Virus record (IMG/VR): IMGVR_UViG_3300027804_000038 | Coordinates: 229,851 to 293,850 of that record | Length of the DNA stretch: 64,000 nucleotides | Direction: 5' to 3' (one strand) | Origin: a virus | Taxonomy: Duplodnaviria > Caudoviricetes | Shown: positions 941-3,921 of the stretch, in pieces | Position numbering within the stretch: the stretch's first letter is position 1 | How the letters are laid out: every line of letters starts with the position of its first letter | The notes under the pieces: generated by a model | Databases searched by the model: none | The model's input: the letters and a program-made list of their open reading frames with translations, nothing else | Told to the model about the DNA's origin: nothing | Position numbers and translations under genes: made by a program

Positions 941-1510
941 ATGAAGGTAATATTTTTAGACCACGATGGGGTTATTTGCTTATCAAATAACTGGGGGTCA
1001 CGATTTAAGAAACAAAAGAAATATAGAAAAAAATTGAGTCAATCAGTAATGACAATGCCTCTTGATGCTCGTTTTGATAACTTTGATAAGAAAGCGATTA
1101 AGGTGTTAAATCAAATCTTGGAACAGACTGGTGCTGAAATCGTTGTTTCTTCCGATTGGAGGATTTGGTGTTCAGTTGAGGAAATGGGTGATTATTACGA
1201 AAGTCATGGAATTATCAAACGTCCAATTGATTTTACAGGTAATGTTATTGATGAATCAAAAGTTACATGGCACCGAAATTGGGATTTGGAAGGAACAAGG
1301 AGTTTGGAAATCCAAGGTTGGTTAAAAGAACACCCTGAGGTAACACAATGGGTAGCTATTGATGATTTGAATATGGGTAAAAAAGGTCTACACTACTCAA
1401 CGGAATTTGAACACGAATGGGGGTTAGATAATTTTGTACATACTCCTCTTAGAAATGAAGGTATAAAACAAGTTGGTATTAAAGAAAAAATTTTATCATT
1501 TTTAAAATAA
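941..1510 (+). CDS. HAD-family phosphatase (HAD_SAK_2 / RNA-repair type)
   Basis: IFLDHDGV, IVVSSDWR, WVAIDD motifs. Confidence 0.8.
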   Translation: MKVIFLDHDGVICLSNNWGSRFKKQKKYRKKLSQSVMTMPLDARFDNFDKKAIKVLNQILEQTGAEIVVSSDWRIWCSVEEMGDYYESHGIIKRPIDFTGNVIDESKVTWHRNWDLEGTRSLEIQGWLKEHPEVTQWVAIDDLNMGKKGLHYSTEFEHEWGLDNFVHTPLRNEGIKQVGIKEKILSFLK

Positions 1511-1523
1511 AAACTTAAAAATA

Positions 1524-1554
1524 TTGACAAATAAATAAAATTTTAATACTTTTG
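1524..1554 (+). promoter_or_regulatory. Promoter of the tRNA operon leader (TTGACA plus Bacteroidota-type TAnnTTTG)
   Basis: TTGACA 1524-1529, TACTTTTG 1547-1554. Confidence 0.6.
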
Positions 1555-1583
1555 TTAAACAGTTATATATTTAATTAAAAACA

Positions 1584-1697
1584 ATGAAACAGAACTCGAT
1601 ACATAACATAAGTAATCTCCCGATGAATGTGGGCCAAGCTTGGTTTGCGATTAAAGGGCAAGATTGCCGTTGTTTAAGGGTTCTTAATGAGATGTAA
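1584..1697 (+). CDS. 37-aa leader peptide (uORF) ahead of the tRNA operon
   Basis: ATG 1584 to TAA 1697, MKQNSIHNISNLPMNVGQAWFAIKGQDCRCLRVLNEM; lies between a promoter and a terminator. Confidence 0.55.
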   Translation: MKQNSIHNISNLPMNVGQAWFAIKGQDCRCLRVLNEM

Positions 1698-1720
1698 GCG
1701 TATCATCAAATATATAAAAA

Positions 1721-1759
1721 AAGAACCCTGAACAATTAAAAAGTTCGGGGTTTTTTTTT
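1721..1759 (+). terminator. Intrinsic terminator / attenuator
   Basis: AAGAACCCTGAAC-loop-GTTCGGGGTTTTT plus T9. Confidence 0.8.
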
Positions 1760-1797
1760 GATGTTACAAAACAGTTCTTTGACATATTGGTGAATTT

Positions 1798-1839
1798 CGG
1801 GATGTAGCTCAGTTGGCTTAGAGTACGTGCTTTGGGAGC
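1798..1839 (+). pseudogene. 5' part of an interrupted tRNA-Pro(TGG)
   Basis: CGGGATG-TA-D arm-CGTGC TTTGGGA GC, then the sequence breaks off. Confidence 0.85.
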
Positions 1840-1880
1840 TCAAAACATGTTTTTTCGACTTTCATGATATTTATTATTAA

Positions 1881-2438
1881 ATGAATATTATGGAAATAAC
1901 TAAATATGTTTTGATAGAAGTTGTAAACACTTCTAAAAGTAAATCAGAAATACTTAAAAAGCTTGAATTGAGTGATAATGGTAGAAATAGAAATCATTTA
2001 AATAAATTAATTTCTGAATTTGGTGTTAGTTTAGATATTTTGAAAAAAAATAAAAGAATTAATACTAAATTTATTGAAAAAGAATGCCCTGTTTGTGGTA
2101 AAATCTTTGAAACTAAAAAAACAGATAGAGAAAAAACAACTTGTTCTTATAGTTGTTCGAACAGTTATTTTAGAAGCGGAGAAAATAATCCAAATTGGAA
2201 AGATGATAGTTACAGAACAACATGTTTTTTATATCATGAGAAGAAATGCGTAGTGTGTGGTGAAGATAAAATAATTGACGTTCATCATTATGATGAAAAC
2301 AAAAAAAATAATAACAAAGAAAATTTAATTCCTCTTTGCCCAACTCATCACATGTATTGGCACTCAAGATATAAAAATTTAATTGAAAAAACTGTTAACA
2401 ACTATAGAGATGATTTCATTAAACGAGTAATGGGCTAA
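1881..2438 (+). CDS. HNH (homing) endonuclease with Zn-finger
   Basis: CPVC..CSYSC, CVVC, DVHH..N..N..NLIPLCPTHH. Confidence 0.85.
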   Translation: MNIMEITKYVLIEVVNTSKSKSEILKKLELSDNGRNRNHLNKLISEFGVSLDILKKNKRINTKFIEKECPVCGKIFETKKTDREKTTCSYSCSNSYFRSGENNPNWKDDSYRTTCFLYHEKKCVVCGEDKIIDVHHYDENKKNNNKENLIPLCPTHHMYWHSRYKNLIEKTVNNYRDDFIKRVMG

Positions 2439-2498
2439 TTGGTAAGCCGCCATATTTGGGATATGGACATCATGTGGGTTCGAGTCCCACTTATTCGA
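2424..2498 (+). tRNA. tRNA-Pro(TGG), complete divergent copy overlapping the HNH stop codon
   Basis: CGAGTAA/TTATTCG acceptor, CCATA-TTTGGGA-TATGG, GTGGG-TTCGAGT-CCCAC. Confidence 0.85.
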
Positions 2499-2501
2499 CA
2501 C

Positions 2502-2526
2502 GCAGGTTCGAGTCCTGTCATCCCGA
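2502..2526 (+). pseudogene. 3' part (T arm and acceptor strand) of the interrupted tRNA-Pro
   Basis: GCAGG-TTCGAGT-CCTGT-CATCCCG-A; CATCCCG pairs with CGGGATG at 1798. Confidence 0.85.
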
Positions 2527-2574
2527 CGATTAAAATTATTTTACATTTTAATCAAAATTGAATATATTTGTACT

Positions 2575-2991
2575 ATGAAACATAGTATGGAAAATGGCGA
2601 TAAGTCTAGAAATGGGAATCAATTAGAGTCCTATTTCATGGAAAAAACTGGATTAAAAAAAATTCAGAAGAAAGAAAAGCCTTTTTTTACTAATAGCCAT
2701 GGTAAAAAACAAATTATTGATTTTGATTTTTATGTTAAAATTAATGATGACGATGTTTACATTGATTTAACAACAACTTATAGAAGTGATAGGTTAAAAC
2801 AAAAAGCATATAATGCTTTAATGTATAAATCAAAGATTAACAAACCTTGTAAATTTTATATGGGTGTTGGTAAATTAGTTGAACATGGAAAGAAAAAAAA
2901 TCCTGTGTTAATTGAAGGTATTGATGGAGTATTAACAGTTGAGGATTTAGTACAAATGATTTCTAAAAGGTCAGATACTCAAGTGGTTTAA
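2575..2991 (+). CDS. Putative PD-(D/E)XK-like nuclease; 3' end overlaps tRNA-Cys
   Basis: IDFDFYV...YIDLTTT pattern; family assignment is tentative. Confidence 0.4.
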   Translation: MKHSMENGDKSRNGNQLESYFMEKTGLKKIQKKEKPFFTNSHGKKQIIDFDFYVKINDDDVYIDLTTTYRSDRLKQKAYNALMYKSKINKPCKFYMGVGKLVEHGKKKNPVLIEGIDGVLTVEDLVQMISKRSDTQVV

Positions 2992-3042
2992 GGGGCCTGT
3001 CTGCAAAATAGGTATTCGTCGGTTCGAATCCGACTCTGACCT
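2969..3042 (+). tRNA. tRNA-Cys(GCA)
   Basis: GGTCAGA/TCTGACC, CCTGT-CTGCAAA-ATAGG, U73. Confidence 0.9.
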
Positions 3043-3118
3043 CAAAAAAAAAATAAAAAATTTCTTTGAAATTAAAAAAATAGACGTATCTTTGTACTCA
3101 CAAATAAACAATAAAAAT

Positions 3119-3868
3119 ATGATTACACTCCAAGAACTCCAATCAGTAGTACCTTCAGTATTCAACACTCAAAAAGCTCAGAAGCTTTCTGACAAGTACA
3201 CAGTTGTTCCAACCATTGACGTAGTAAATCAATTTATGCAAGCAGGGTGGGAAGTGTCAAGTGCAAAACAAGTAGGGTCAGGTGTATACGGCAAACACTC
3301 AGTTCGTCTCCGTAACTCTGAACTCCCAAAGGTAGGTGATTCTCTACTTGAGGCTATCATCACTAACTCTCACGATGGTCGTACCAAACTCCAAGTAGGA
3401 GCAGGGTTGTACCGATTGGTGTGTTCTAATGGTCTTGTAGTACCAATGCAAGAAATGGTTAACATTAACCAGCGTCACATGAACATTCAGATGGATGAAG
3501 TGAATCAAATCACAGAGAAGTTCATTCAGATATCACCAATCATTGAACGTTCAGTTAATAAAATGATTGACGTTAAAATGGATACTGAAAAGAAAATTGA
3601 TTTTGTAACCAAGGCGGTTGGAATTCGTTGGAAAAATACCGAAGACATCTCAAGTATGACTCTTGAGACGATTATCGAACCTCTTCGTGGTGATGATAAC
3701 AACGATACACTTTGGCATACTTTCAATGTAGTACAGGAGAAGTTGATTAGAGGTGGATTTGTAAAATCACAAGGTAAAAATGTGAGAACAGTCAAAGGGA
3801 TTACTTCCCTAAATATGGACACAATGATTAATACAAAATTGTGGGAATTGGCTGAAACATACATTTAA
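3119..3868 (+). CDS. DUF932/DUF945-family phage protein
   Basis: IITNSHDGRT, GLYRLVCSNGLV, LWHTFNVVQE motifs. Confidence 0.85.
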   Translation: MITLQELQSVVPSVFNTQKAQKLSDKYTVVPTIDVVNQFMQAGWEVSSAKQVGSGVYGKHSVRLRNSELPKVGDSLLEAIITNSHDGRTKLQVGAGLYRLVCSNGLVVPMQEMVNINQRHMNIQMDEVNQITEKFIQISPIIERSVNKMIDVKMDTEKKIDFVTKAVGIRWKNTEDISSMTLETIIEPLRGDDNNDTLWHTFNVVQEKLIRGGFVKSQGKNVRTVKGITSLNMDTMINTKLWELAETYI

Positions 3869-3921
3869 TCTTTATGATTGATGTTTACAAATGGTACCTC
3901 AAAAAGGTACCATTTTTATTT

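What the first reader, a model, noticed from the sequence alone, without database searches (positions are those of the whole stretch)
1798..2526. HNH gene splits tRNA-Pro(TGG) and carries its own replacement tRNA-Pro
Seen: the resident tRNA-Pro is broken after the anticodon loop (5' part 1798-1839; T arm and acceptor strand 2502-2526; about 7 nt missing). The 660-bp insert holds an HNH ORF plus a complete, sequence-divergent tRNA-Pro(TGG) whose first 15 nt are the ORF's last codons and stop. Inference: an intron-free homing element that destroys the target isoacceptor and restores function with a cleavage-resistant allele physically fused to the nuclease gene.
Basis: partly seen in the sequence, partly recalled or inferred. 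Interest (0 to 1): 0.75.

Follow-up and report, generated by a model that had tools for sequence, protein, structure and literature searches.

The report
Nuclease cassette splits tRNA-Pro, brings spare
A selfish DNA-cutting-enzyme gene that travels with its own working proline tRNA gene has landed in the middle of this giant phage's original proline tRNA gene and broken it; a sister sample still holds the unbroken gene, so the element stays harmless by bringing a substitute rather than by splicing itself out.

Summary
The resident tRNA-Pro(UGG) gene is in two pieces, 1798-1839 and 2501-2526. Between them lie 661 bp (1840-2500): a leader, an HNH endonuclease ORF (1881/1890-2438) and a complete, divergent tRNA-Pro(UGG) (2424-2499) whose first 15 nt are the ORF's last four codons and stop.

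I found the empty site. L177, a contig from a sister assembly with about 99.5% identical flanks, carries the same tRNA-Pro intact. The insert replaces exactly 7 nt (ATGAGGT, the end of the anticodon stem plus four variable-loop bases). A third assembly (L091) has the occupied site with an in-frame 54-nt deletion that removes half of the HNH motif.

The same cassette (80% nt identity) sits unsplit in another phage's tRNA array (L092). In 53 of 66 non-redundant homologues the nearest tRNA is tRNA-Pro, and several other phages show independent splits of a tRNA-Pro gene.

No ribozyme was found, and the 7 lost bases rule out precise splicing. The best reading is an intron-less homing cassette that cuts tRNA-Pro genes and carries a probably immune spare.

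This scan has noted the same kind of element before on other DNA. I found no paper describing it.

The parts
1511..1797 (+). Context only: conserved intergenic region in front of the tRNA array. It includes a hairpin followed by a T-run at about 1722-1760. In related phages it is followed directly by tRNA-Asn.
   Evidence: blastn at 84-90% identity to loci L002-L051, where tRNA-Asn follows. Weak Thr_leader-like Rfam match at 1683-1759. Earlier scan notes read it as a leader-peptide attenuator; I did not test that.
1798..1839 (+). 5' piece of the resident tRNA-Pro(UGG) gene: nt 1-42 of the 76-nt gene (standard positions 1-40).
   Evidence: Identical to L177:1134-1175 of the intact empty-site gene. 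38/40 match to the intact tRNA-Pro of L008 and seven other loci. Weak truncated tRNA match in Rfam, 17.8 bits.
1840..2500 (+). The inserted cassette, 661 bp: leader, HNH gene, its own tRNA-Pro, plus one A.
   Evidence: Absent from L177, where 7 nt (ATGAGGT) stand instead. 80.5% nt identity to L092:3262-3922, which sits between tRNA-Thr and tRNA-Phe with no tRNA-Pro pieces around it.
1842..1912 (+). Leader hairpin that buries both candidate start codons of the HNH ORF (ATG 1881 and ATG 1890).
   Evidence: RNA fold: 16-bp inner stem plus an outer stem, -20.7 kcal/mol, z -6.0 against shuffles. Hairpins over the start codon also fold in L093, L172 and L160, but not in L092.
1881..2438 (+). HNH endonuclease ORF: 185 aa from ATG 1881, or 182 aa from ATG 1890, which is the start that homologues and gene callers use.
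   Evidence: PHROG 1271 HNH endonuclease, E 1.9e-14; Pfam HNH_2 21.2 bits against a cutoff of 21. 842 homologues. Invariant C123, C126, H135, H136, N148, C153, H156, H157 and H161. AF2 model pLDDT 89, with only weak PDB matches, the top ones to HNH-nuclease proteins.
2424..2499 (+). Cassette-borne tRNA-Pro(UGG), the only intact tRNA-Pro in the 293,850-bp genome. It has a 7-nt variable loop, and its first 15 nt are the end of the HNH ORF.
   Evidence: ARAGORN. Rfam tRNA 56.8 bits. C1-G72, A73, G35-G36-G37 read directly from the sequence. Cloverleaf kept in 9 related alleles, with compensatory changes at 16 of 23 pairs and none broken. About 62% identical to the resident gene.
2501..2526 (+). 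3' piece of the resident tRNA-Pro gene: last variable-loop base, T arm, acceptor 3' strand and discriminator A.
   Evidence: Identical to L177:1183-1208. Acceptor strand complementary to 1798-1804. 27/27 match to intact tRNA-Pro genes in L082-L084.
2331..2384 (+). Approximate stretch (54 nt, between AATTTAATT direct repeats) that is deleted in the sister contig L091. It encodes PLCPTHHMYWHSRYKNLI, the second half of the HNH motif.
   Evidence: Pairwise blastn of window 1700-2700 against L091: identical apart from this 54-nt gap.

Best explanation
The 661-bp insert is a free-standing (intron-less) HNH homing-endonuclease cassette that carries its own tRNA-Pro(UGG) gene.

Shown:
- It entered the phage's resident tRNA-Pro(UGG) gene at the boundary between anticodon stem and variable loop. 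It replaced 7 nt and left two dead pieces.
- The cassette tRNA is now the genome's only intact tRNA-Pro.
- The same phage population holds an empty, an occupied and an HNH-degenerate allele.
- The same cassette type occurs in other phages beside, in place of, or inside tRNA-Pro genes.

Inferred:
- The HNH enzyme nicks or cuts tRNA-Pro genes of cassette-free genomes, in or near the variable loop and T arm, during co-infection.
- The break is repaired from the cassette-bearing genome, or by short-homology joining. This copies nuclease and spare tRNA together.
- The spare is immune because its stems and its 7-nt variable loop differ from the target.
- The spare takes over decoding of proline codons, so the insertion costs the phage little. 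It does for an RNA gene what a self-splicing intron or an intein does elsewhere.
- Nuclease expression is probably kept low in two ways: a hairpin buries the start codons, and RNase P processing of the overlapping tRNA would cut the mRNA before its stop codon.
For: Insertion event:
- L177 has the intact gene with flanks identical for 414 nt to the left, and with 1 mismatch in about 550 nt to the right.
- The window and L176 have the insert.
- L091 has the insert with a 54-nt in-frame deletion of HNH catalytic and zinc residues. This matches the invasion, fixation and decay cycle known for homing endonuclease genes.

Discrete mobile unit:
- Homology to L092 runs from 1840 to 2500, whose ends fall at the two junctions. 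There the cassette lies between tRNA-Thr and tRNA-Phe.
- L093 has it downstream of an intact tRNA-Pro.

Target specificity:
- tRNA-Pro is the nearest tRNA, upstream or downstream, in 53 of 66 non-redundant homologue loci, against about 27% expected (binomial p 1.7e-19).
- 6 of 7 further hits in a genome (MAG) collection have a tRNA-Pro right beside the gene, and the seventh has one about 580 nt away.
- In the cultured jumbo phages whose loci I inspected, Xanthomonas XbC2 and Serratia BF, the gene follows a tRNA-Pro; two Erwinia phages also carry a homologue.

Repeated splitting:
- L160, L116, L123, L145 and the L159/L161/L169/L171/L172 group show tRNA-Pro pieces around an HNH and an intact tRNA-Pro.
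- Where both pieces remain, their acceptor strands are complementary.
- In L159, L161 and L169 the cassette is 96-97% identical, while the 5' tRNA pieces are 68-75% identical and the upstream flanks are unrelated.

Not an intron:
- No group I or II match in the window or in 7 related loci.
- 7 nt of the tRNA are lost.

Spare is a working-type tRNA:
- Compensatory changes at 16 of 23 pairs and none broken.
- Identity elements are present.

Immunity hint:
- 12 of 14 tRNA-Pro(UGG) genes in loci without this HNH have a 5-nt variable loop, against 5 of 25 of those fused to the HNH (Fisher p 1.2e-4).

Expression control:
- Start-codon hairpin.
- The same two controls were proposed for T4 segB (PMC2330249).
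Against: - No cleavage assay exists, so neither the cut site nor the immunity of the spare is known.
- In L093, L095 and several other loci an intact tRNA-Pro sits just upstream of the HNH. Either not every tRNA-Pro allele is a target, or expression is tightly limited.
- In L160 the spare differs little from the resident gene and has a normal 5-nt variable loop. Variable-loop length therefore cannot be the only immunity determinant.
- Breakpoints differ between clades (after nt 38, 40, 46; some after about nt 20-25). This may mean erosion or different cut sites.
- The junctions in the window show no clear microhomology, so the first entry may have been an illegitimate joining rather than classical homing.
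- The variable-loop and adjacency counts are not corrected for shared ancestry.
Expression of the HNH and maturation of the spare are unshown.
- The start-codon hairpin is not conserved in L092.
Confidence: 0.8

Rival explanations
1. Anti-defence tRNA module. The divergent tRNA-Pro alleles are selected mainly because they escape a host tRNA-cleaving defence. The HNH serves the phage by exchanging or amplifying such alleles, as T6 SegB amplifies tRNA-Tyr against Septu. The split resident gene is a by-product. This is compatible with mobility; it differs on what drives the spread.
For: SegB drives amplification of a tRNA-Tyr/segB unit that overcomes a defence cutting the tRNA variable loop (PMC13096335). 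HNH-linked tRNA-Pro genes have unusual variable loops of 4, 6, 7, 19 or 25 nt. Pro-His units are duplicated around the HNH in L134, L136 and L139.
Against: No tRNA-Pro-cleaving defence was looked for or identified here. The unusual alleles track HNH adjacency within the same arrays. The resident gene is destroyed rather than kept as an extra copy. The HNH decays in L091 while the tRNA stays, which also fits a purely selfish nuclease.
Confidence: 0.15
2. Chance illegitimate insertion.
For: Junctions in the window lack clear microhomology and 7 nt are lost. Other endonuclease families also populate these arrays between other tRNAs.
Against: tRNA-Pro adjacency in 53 of 66 clusters against about 27% expected, and again in the MAG hits. 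At least five further split tRNA-Pro genes were found. Near-identical cassettes sit at the same tRNA position in three unrelated contexts.
Confidence: 0.07
3. Intervening sequence removed at RNA level. The insert is an intron (group I, group II or of unknown kind) and the two pieces are ligated into a functional tRNA.
For: Bacterial group I introns do sit in tRNA anticodon loops and can carry HNH genes (general knowledge; review PMC3984707 was listed but I did not read it). In L160 almost nothing of the resident tRNA is missing.
Against: No intron family match at E up to 10 in the window or at E up to 0.1 in 7 related loci. Only 41 nt precede the ORF, and only a tRNA follows it. Joining the pieces would give a tRNA lacking 7 nt, including most of the variable loop. 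In L159 and L172 the 3' pieces start in the T loop and are degenerate.
Confidence: 0.02
4. Integrase-type island or tandem duplication. The extra tRNA-Pro is an att-site duplication made by a site-specific recombinase, or a diverged tandem duplicate of the resident gene.
For: tRNA genes are classical integration sites, and integration leaves partial tRNA copies (general knowledge).
Against: The 661-bp insert contains no recombinase. There is no direct repeat of the tRNA 3' end. The inner tRNA is complete and only about 62% identical to the resident. The same cassette exists elsewhere without the pieces.
Confidence: 0.01

Closest known systems
Phage T4/T6 SegB, a free-standing GIY-YIG homing endonuclease in the tRNA gene cluster (PMC2330249; PMC13096335)
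   Same: It is a free-standing nuclease gene inside a phage tRNA array. It cuts tRNA genes of related phages that lack it and is inherited together with neighbouring tRNA genes. Its ORF end overlaps the next tRNA, so tRNA processing would remove the stop codon. A hairpin over its start codon was proposed as a brake.
   Different: It belongs to another nuclease superfamily (GIY-YIG, not HNH). It recognises the T-arm motif common to all tRNAs, and its homologues show no isotype preference. The HNH family here is tied to tRNA-Pro(UGG). SegB lies between genes; it is not reported to split a tRNA gene while carrying a same-isoacceptor spare.
Phage T5 F-TflI, F-TflII and F-TflIV endonucleases of the tRNA gene region
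   Same: They are endonuclease ORFs located in a phage tRNA cluster, and processing of the tRNA precursor was suggested to limit their expression (cited in PMC2330249).
   Different: I could not read the primary paper, which is not in the library. tblastn of this HNH against 50,697 phage records gave no T5-like hit at E up to 1e-8, so there is no close sequence relationship.
Homing endonuclease genes inside self-splicing group I introns of bacterial tRNA genes, and inteins
   Same: The nuclease gene sits inside the conserved gene it targets, and the host is spared the loss of function.
   Different: There the cost is removed by RNA or protein splicing. Here no ribozyme is present, 7 nt of the gene are lost, and function is supplied by a second complete gene carried in the insert.
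Genes split by free-standing endonuclease insertion (Aeh1 nrdA split by mobE; 'fractured genes' with split inteins, PMC2677866)
   Same: A homing endonuclease gene interrupts an essential-type gene without an intron.
   Different: In those cases the two gene pieces stay functional, either as subunits or through trans-splicing inteins. Here the pieces are dead remnants and a replacement gene is brought along. The Aeh1 case is recalled from memory; the fractured-genes paper is known to me only from its abstract.
Synthetic cleave-and-rescue (ClvR-type) gene drives (my own knowledge, not checked here)
   Same: The logic matches: a nuclease that destroys the wild-type copy of a needed gene is linked to a recoded, uncuttable rescue copy.
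   Different: Those are engineered Cas9 systems in animals. This is a natural protein-guided nuclease in phage, and whether the spare is truly uncuttable is untested.

Membership tests
Free-standing (intron-less) homing endonuclease gene | Encodes a nuclease of a homing-endonuclease superfamily with catalytic residues intact | tested here: met
   PHROG 1271 HNH, E 1.9e-14; Pfam HNH_2 at threshold. Invariant His/Asn/Cys positions across 39 homologues. Confident AF2 model (pLDDT 89) whose only PDB matches are weak, the top ones to HNH-nuclease proteins.
Free-standing (intron-less) homing endonuclease gene | Presence/absence polymorphism at one locus among otherwise near-identical genomes | tested here: met
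   L177 is empty; the window and L176 are occupied; flanks are about 99.5% identical.
Free-standing (intron-less) homing endonuclease gene | Same element at the cognate site in unrelated genomic backgrounds | tested here: met
   The cassette is 96-97% identical in L159, L161 and L169, with 68-75% identical tRNA pieces and unrelated flanks. The L092 and L093 contexts differ again.
Free-standing (intron-less) homing endonuclease gene | Site-specific cleavage of the endonuclease-free allele, with immunity of its own allele | not testable with these tools
   Needs purified protein and DNA substrates. The only indirect hints are insertion points clustered at tRNA positions 38-48 and unusual variable loops.
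Free-standing (intron-less) homing endonuclease gene | Preferential inheritance in mixed infection | not testable with these tools
   The phage is uncultured (IMG/VR record).
Group I or group II intron in a tRNA gene | Ribozyme core detectable by covariance model | tested here: not met
   Rfam at E up to 10 on window 1400-3200 and at E up to 0.1 on 7 related loci returned no intron family.
Group I or group II intron in a tRNA gene | Exons join to give the complete gene | tested here: not met
   Joining 1839 to 2501 lacks the 7 nt ATGAGGT that the intact L177 gene has.
SegB-like GIY-YIG endonucleases | GIY-YIG catalytic domain | tested here: not met
   No GIY-YIG match in Pfam or PHROGs; the domain is HNH.
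tRNA-targeting integrative element | Site-specific recombinase gene and direct repeat of the tRNA 3' part at both ends | tested here: not met
   The only ORF of the insert with a family match is the HNH gene. The ends are a 5' piece and a 3' piece of one gene, not repeats.
Functional bacterial-type tRNA-Pro (for the cassette copy 2424-2499) | Cloverleaf, UGG anticodon, G37, C1-G72 and A73 | tested here: met
   ARAGORN and Rfam. Bases read. Covariation in 9 alleles. The named identity elements are from my own knowledge of E. coli tRNA-Pro.
Functional bacterial-type tRNA-Pro (for the cassette copy 2424-2499) | Processed, aminoacylated with proline and used in translation | not testable with these tools
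The 7-nt variable loop is unusual for a class I tRNA.

The most novel reading that the evidence does not exclude
This is a natural 'cleave-and-rescue' drive on RNA genes. It would be a third way, beside self-splicing introns and inteins, for a homing endonuclease to live inside the conserved gene it attacks: it carries a recoded, nuclease-immune copy of that gene. On this reading, isotype-specific HNH families such as this tRNA-Pro one continually overwrite tRNA genes in phage arrays. That would explain why phages that are otherwise close carry wildly different tRNA-Pro alleles in the same slot. It would also explain why many of those alleles have odd variable loops of 6-7 nt, or insertions of about 20-25 nt, which would be immunity scars.
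Probability: 0.55. Interest if true: 0.8.

Novelty: new variant of a known kind. Interest (0 to 1): 0.7.

Why it matters
- **A third strategy for homing endonucleases.** These genes are thought to persist inside conserved genes only when an intron or intein removes them, or else they stay between genes. Here a gene is broken outright and the element pays the cost by bringing a spare. In one environment the empty, occupied and decaying states are all preserved.
- **tRNA turnover in phage arrays.** This would help explain the rapid turnover and odd shapes of tRNA genes in phage tRNA arrays.
- **A testable nuclease.** It offers a compact, probably sequence-specific HNH nuclease with a defined natural target to test.
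- **A natural cleave-and-rescue system.** It gives a natural model of cleave-and-rescue drive dynamics.
- **Annotation.** Orphan tRNA halves and 'pseudo-tRNAs' next to HNH genes, as annotated in Serratia phage BF, may be footprints of this process.

Tried and rejected
- **Intron reading.** Rejected. Rfam with permissive thresholds found no intron family in the window or in 7 related loci, and 7 nt are missing.
- **Integrase/att reading.** Rejected. No recombinase and no repeats.
- **Promoter and terminator scan of 1450-3150.** Fewer promoter-like sites than in shuffles and no terminator call, so uninformative.
- **Exact 25-mer of the resident anticodon arm in metagenome contigs.** No match. 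The empty site was found instead through the downstream neighbour protein.
- **Close-relative search for the HNH in viral contigs.** Only one distant locus. An alignment-based search was needed.
- **Foldseek against the PDB.** Only weak, partial matches, the top ones to HNH-nuclease proteins (IscB, McrA, Cap5; best E 0.066), so there is no informative structural relative for the DNA-binding half.
- **Defining the recognition site from invaded versus spare alleles.** The invaded alleles share little beyond universal tRNA positions, and L160's spare is close to its resident gene. I left the site undefined.
- **Complex prediction.** Not used, because it does not address protein-DNA recognition.
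Full report
**Setting**

The window is the last 64 kb of a 293,850-bp IMG/VR virus record that CheckV rates as complete. It holds 22 tRNA genes; the whole genome holds 25 tRNA genes plus a predicted tmRNA. Only one intact tRNA-Pro exists in the genome, at window 2424-2499.

**The observation**

Reading 1500-3000 shows the following.
- 1798-1839 is the 5' part of a tRNA-Pro: acceptor strand CGGGATG, D arm, anticodon stem strand CGTGC, loop TTTGGGA, then GC.
- 2501-2526 is C, followed by a T arm (GCAGG / TTCGAGT / CCTGT), the acceptor strand CATCCCG and A73.
- The two acceptor strands are perfectly complementary.
- An ORF lies between them at 1881-2438. Homologues and gene callers start it at the second ATG, 1890, giving 182 aa.
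- The ORF is an HNH endonuclease: PHROG 1271, E 1.9e-14; Pfam HNH_2 at its threshold.
- Its last codons, CGA GTA ATG GGC TAA, are also nt 1-15 of a complete tRNA-Pro(UGG) at 2424-2499 (ARAGORN; Rfam 56.8 bits).

**The empty site**

The protein encoded just downstream (2575-2991) led to two ENA contigs that encode it exactly.
- L176, part of a 175-kb contig, is identical to the window over all 730 nt of the split locus.
- L177 (2,182 bp, from a sister assembly) has the same flanks, but only 422 bp separate the two neighbouring genes, against 1,064 bp in the window.
- L177 carries an intact tRNA-Pro(UGG) at 1134-1209.
- Base-by-base comparison: the left flank is identical for 414 nt. The first 42 nt of the tRNA are identical. 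L177 then reads ATGAGGT followed by CGCAGG..., while the window reads 661 nt (1840-2500) followed by CGCAGG.... The right flank has one mismatch in about 550 nt.
- So 661 bp replaced exactly 7 bp: the last three bases of the anticodon stem and four of the five variable-loop bases.

A third contig from the same set of assemblies, L091, has the occupied site. It is identical to the window except for a 54-nt in-frame deletion between AATTTAATT direct repeats. That deletion removes PLCPTHHMYWHSRYKNLI, the second half of the HNH motif. Empty, occupied and nuclease-degenerate alleles therefore coexist. This is the pattern expected from the known life cycle of homing endonuclease genes.

**The insert is a discrete, mobile unit**

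The HNH protein has 842 homologues at E up to 1e-3.
- The 79%-identical one (L092) lies in another phage's tRNA array. Nucleotide homology to the window runs from 1840 to 2500, whose ends fall at the two junctions.
- In L092 the same leader, HNH gene and overlapping tRNA-Pro sit between tRNA-Thr and tRNA-Phe, with no tRNA-Pro pieces around them.
- In L093 (70% identity) the unit lies 50 nt downstream of an intact tRNA-Pro.
- In L089 and L090 (51% identity) the HNH follows a tRNA-Pro. The HNH-free relatives L087 and L088 have a different tRNA-Pro allele plus a small ORF at that place, while the neighbouring tRNA-Arg and tRNA-Ile are conserved.

**Family-wide link to tRNA-Pro**

An alignment-based search gave 80 more viral loci.
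- After collapsing near-identical proteins, tRNA-Pro is the nearest upstream or downstream tRNA in 53 of 66 clusters. tRNA-Pro makes up 14% of tRNAs in these loci, so about 27% is expected (binomial p 1.7e-19).
- Two layouts recur. In one, tRNA-Pro lies 50-150 nt upstream of the HNH. In the other, tRNA-Pro overlaps the ORF's 3' end by 10, 15, 23 or 33 nt. Some loci have both.
- Seven further hits in a collection of genomes and MAGs all have a tRNA-Pro nearby: within about 100 nt in six of them, and about 580 nt away in L186.
- Among cultured phages, Xanthomonas XbC2, Serratia BF and two Erwinia jumbo phages carry a homologue. In the two loci I inspected (XbC2 and BF) the gene follows a tRNA-Pro, and BF also has an annotated pseudo-tRNA there.
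- These counts are not corrected for shared ancestry.

**Other split tRNA-Pro genes**

Orphan tRNA-Pro pieces flank the HNH and an intact tRNA-Pro in several other loci.

| Locus | 5' piece kept (tRNA nt) | 3' piece | Note |
|---|---|---|---|
| L160 | 1 to about 46 | resumes in the variable loop | almost nothing lost |
| L116 | about 1-20 | present | order is 5' piece, intact tRNA-Pro, HNH, 3' piece |
| L123 | 1-22 | – | |
| L145 | 1-25 | – | |
| L159, L161, L169, L171, L172 | ends right after the anticodon loop | resumes in the T loop (absent in L161) | |

- Where both pieces remain, their acceptor strands are complementary and differ from locus to locus.
- In L159, L161 and L169 the cassette is 96-97% identical, while the 5' tRNA pieces are only 68-75% identical and the upstream flanks are unrelated. 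One cassette has therefore entered different tRNA-Pro genes at the same position.
- Insertion points cluster between tRNA positions 38 and 48. I take that as the likely region of cutting; this is inference.

**Not an intron**

- Rfam found no group I or II intron in the window at E up to 10, nor in seven related loci at E up to 0.1.
- Only 41 nt precede the ORF, and only the tRNA follows it.
- Joining the pieces would give a tRNA without most of its variable loop.
- The 3' pieces in L159 and L172 are degenerate.

**The spare tRNA**

- It has C1-G72, A73 and G35-G36-G37. These are identity elements of bacterial tRNA-Pro, from my own knowledge.
- In nine related HNH-linked alleles the cloverleaf is kept, with compensatory double changes at 16 of 23 pairs and no broken pair.
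- It is about 62% identical to the resident gene and has a 7-nt variable loop.
- Across the data, 12 of 14 distinct tRNA-Pro(UGG) genes in loci without this HNH have the usual 5 nt, against 5 of 25 of those fused to the HNH (Fisher p 1.2e-4). Several HNH-linked copies carry variable arms of 19-25 nt.
- This fits immunity by altering the cut region. L160's spare has a normal loop, however, so it cannot be the whole story.

**Expression**

- Both candidate start codons lie in the 3' arm of a 16-bp hairpin (-20.7 kcal/mol, z -6.0). Similar hairpins fold in some relatives, but not in L092.
- RNase P cutting at the 5' end of the spare would remove the ORF's last codons and its stop codon.
- Both kinds of brake were proposed for T4 segB (PMC2330249). 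Here they are inference.

**Known relatives of the idea**

- T4/T6 SegB is a free-standing GIY-YIG endonuclease in the tRNA cluster. It cuts tRNA genes at the T-arm motif, drives inheritance of neighbouring tRNA genes, and shows no isotype preference (PMC2330249; PMC13096335).
- The T5 F-Tfl enzymes also lie in a tRNA region (cited).
- Four full-text searches found no paper describing an endonuclease cassette that splits a tRNA gene and carries a same-isoacceptor spare.
- Earlier notes of this scan describe the same kind of cassette on other DNA, for tRNA-Pro and also for Arg, Ile and Met. I treat those as leads, not as evidence.

**Limits**

- The recognition site, the type of break and the repair route are unknown.
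- The AF2 model is confident (pLDDT 89). The PDB offers only weak matches, the top ones to HNH-nuclease proteins.

Noticed in passing
window 2575-3043: The 138-aa ORF just downstream (2575-2991) overlaps tRNA-Cys (2969-3043) by 23 nt. It has a weak Cfr10I/Bse634I restriction-endonuclease match (Pfam PF07832, E 0.031), and several homologues carry that Pfam label. The ORF plus tRNA-Cys pair is conserved in L087-L090. It may be a second nuclease-plus-tRNA unit.
   Followed up: partly
L093:1330-1420; L094:2301-2397; L120:2075-2170; L146:2215-2310; L154:2874-2970; L089:97-189: tRNA-Pro(UGG) genes of 91-97 nt, with 19-25-nt variable arms, recur in loci that hold this HNH family. They could be immunity scars or insertion footprints in the variable loop. 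Whether they function is unknown.
   Followed up: partly
L009:5000-5536; L017:9734-10555; L090:4764-5300 and 1601-2224: Arrays of related phages carry other endonuclease-like ORFs between other tRNAs: a classical HNH with an N-terminal helix-turn-helix look, and a zinc-finger protein whose C-terminus looks DUF559/Vsr-like by eye. Their ORF ends also abut the next tRNA. These arrays seem to be a playground for several homing-endonuclease families.
   Followed up: partly
window 1798-3921, compared with L002-L051: In relatives the conserved upstream region is followed directly by tRNA-Asn, and tRNA-Pro sits further in, after tRNA-Ile(GAU). In this phage and in L177 the block tRNA-Pro, ORF138, tRNA-Cys and DUF932 stands between them. 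At least four very different tRNA-Pro(UGG) alleles occupy the same slot among relatives. One of them (in L002-L004 and L016) resembles the HNH-linked alleles of L123 and L135.
   Followed up: partly
L092:3922-4107; L172:2910-3065: G+C-richer stretches of about 150-190 nt follow the cassette tRNA-Pro in other phages. They have no Rfam match. Nature unknown.
   Followed up: no
G000:C1:49741-50133 (outside the window), minus strand: ARAGORN predicts a phage-encoded tmRNA with tag GNVINKLQTIGLIRTEEVSVA. This would be relevant if tRNA processing makes non-stop HNH mRNAs, but I did not examine it.
   Followed up: no
whole genome G000: No tRNA-Ala and no tRNA-His were found in this genome, although relatives carry them in the same arrays.
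   Followed up: no
window 1683-1766: Weak Rfam matches to amino-acid operon leaders and terminator-containing sRNAs lie over a hairpin plus T-run just upstream of the split tRNA. Earlier scan notes read this as a leader-peptide attenuator for the tRNA array.
   Followed up: no
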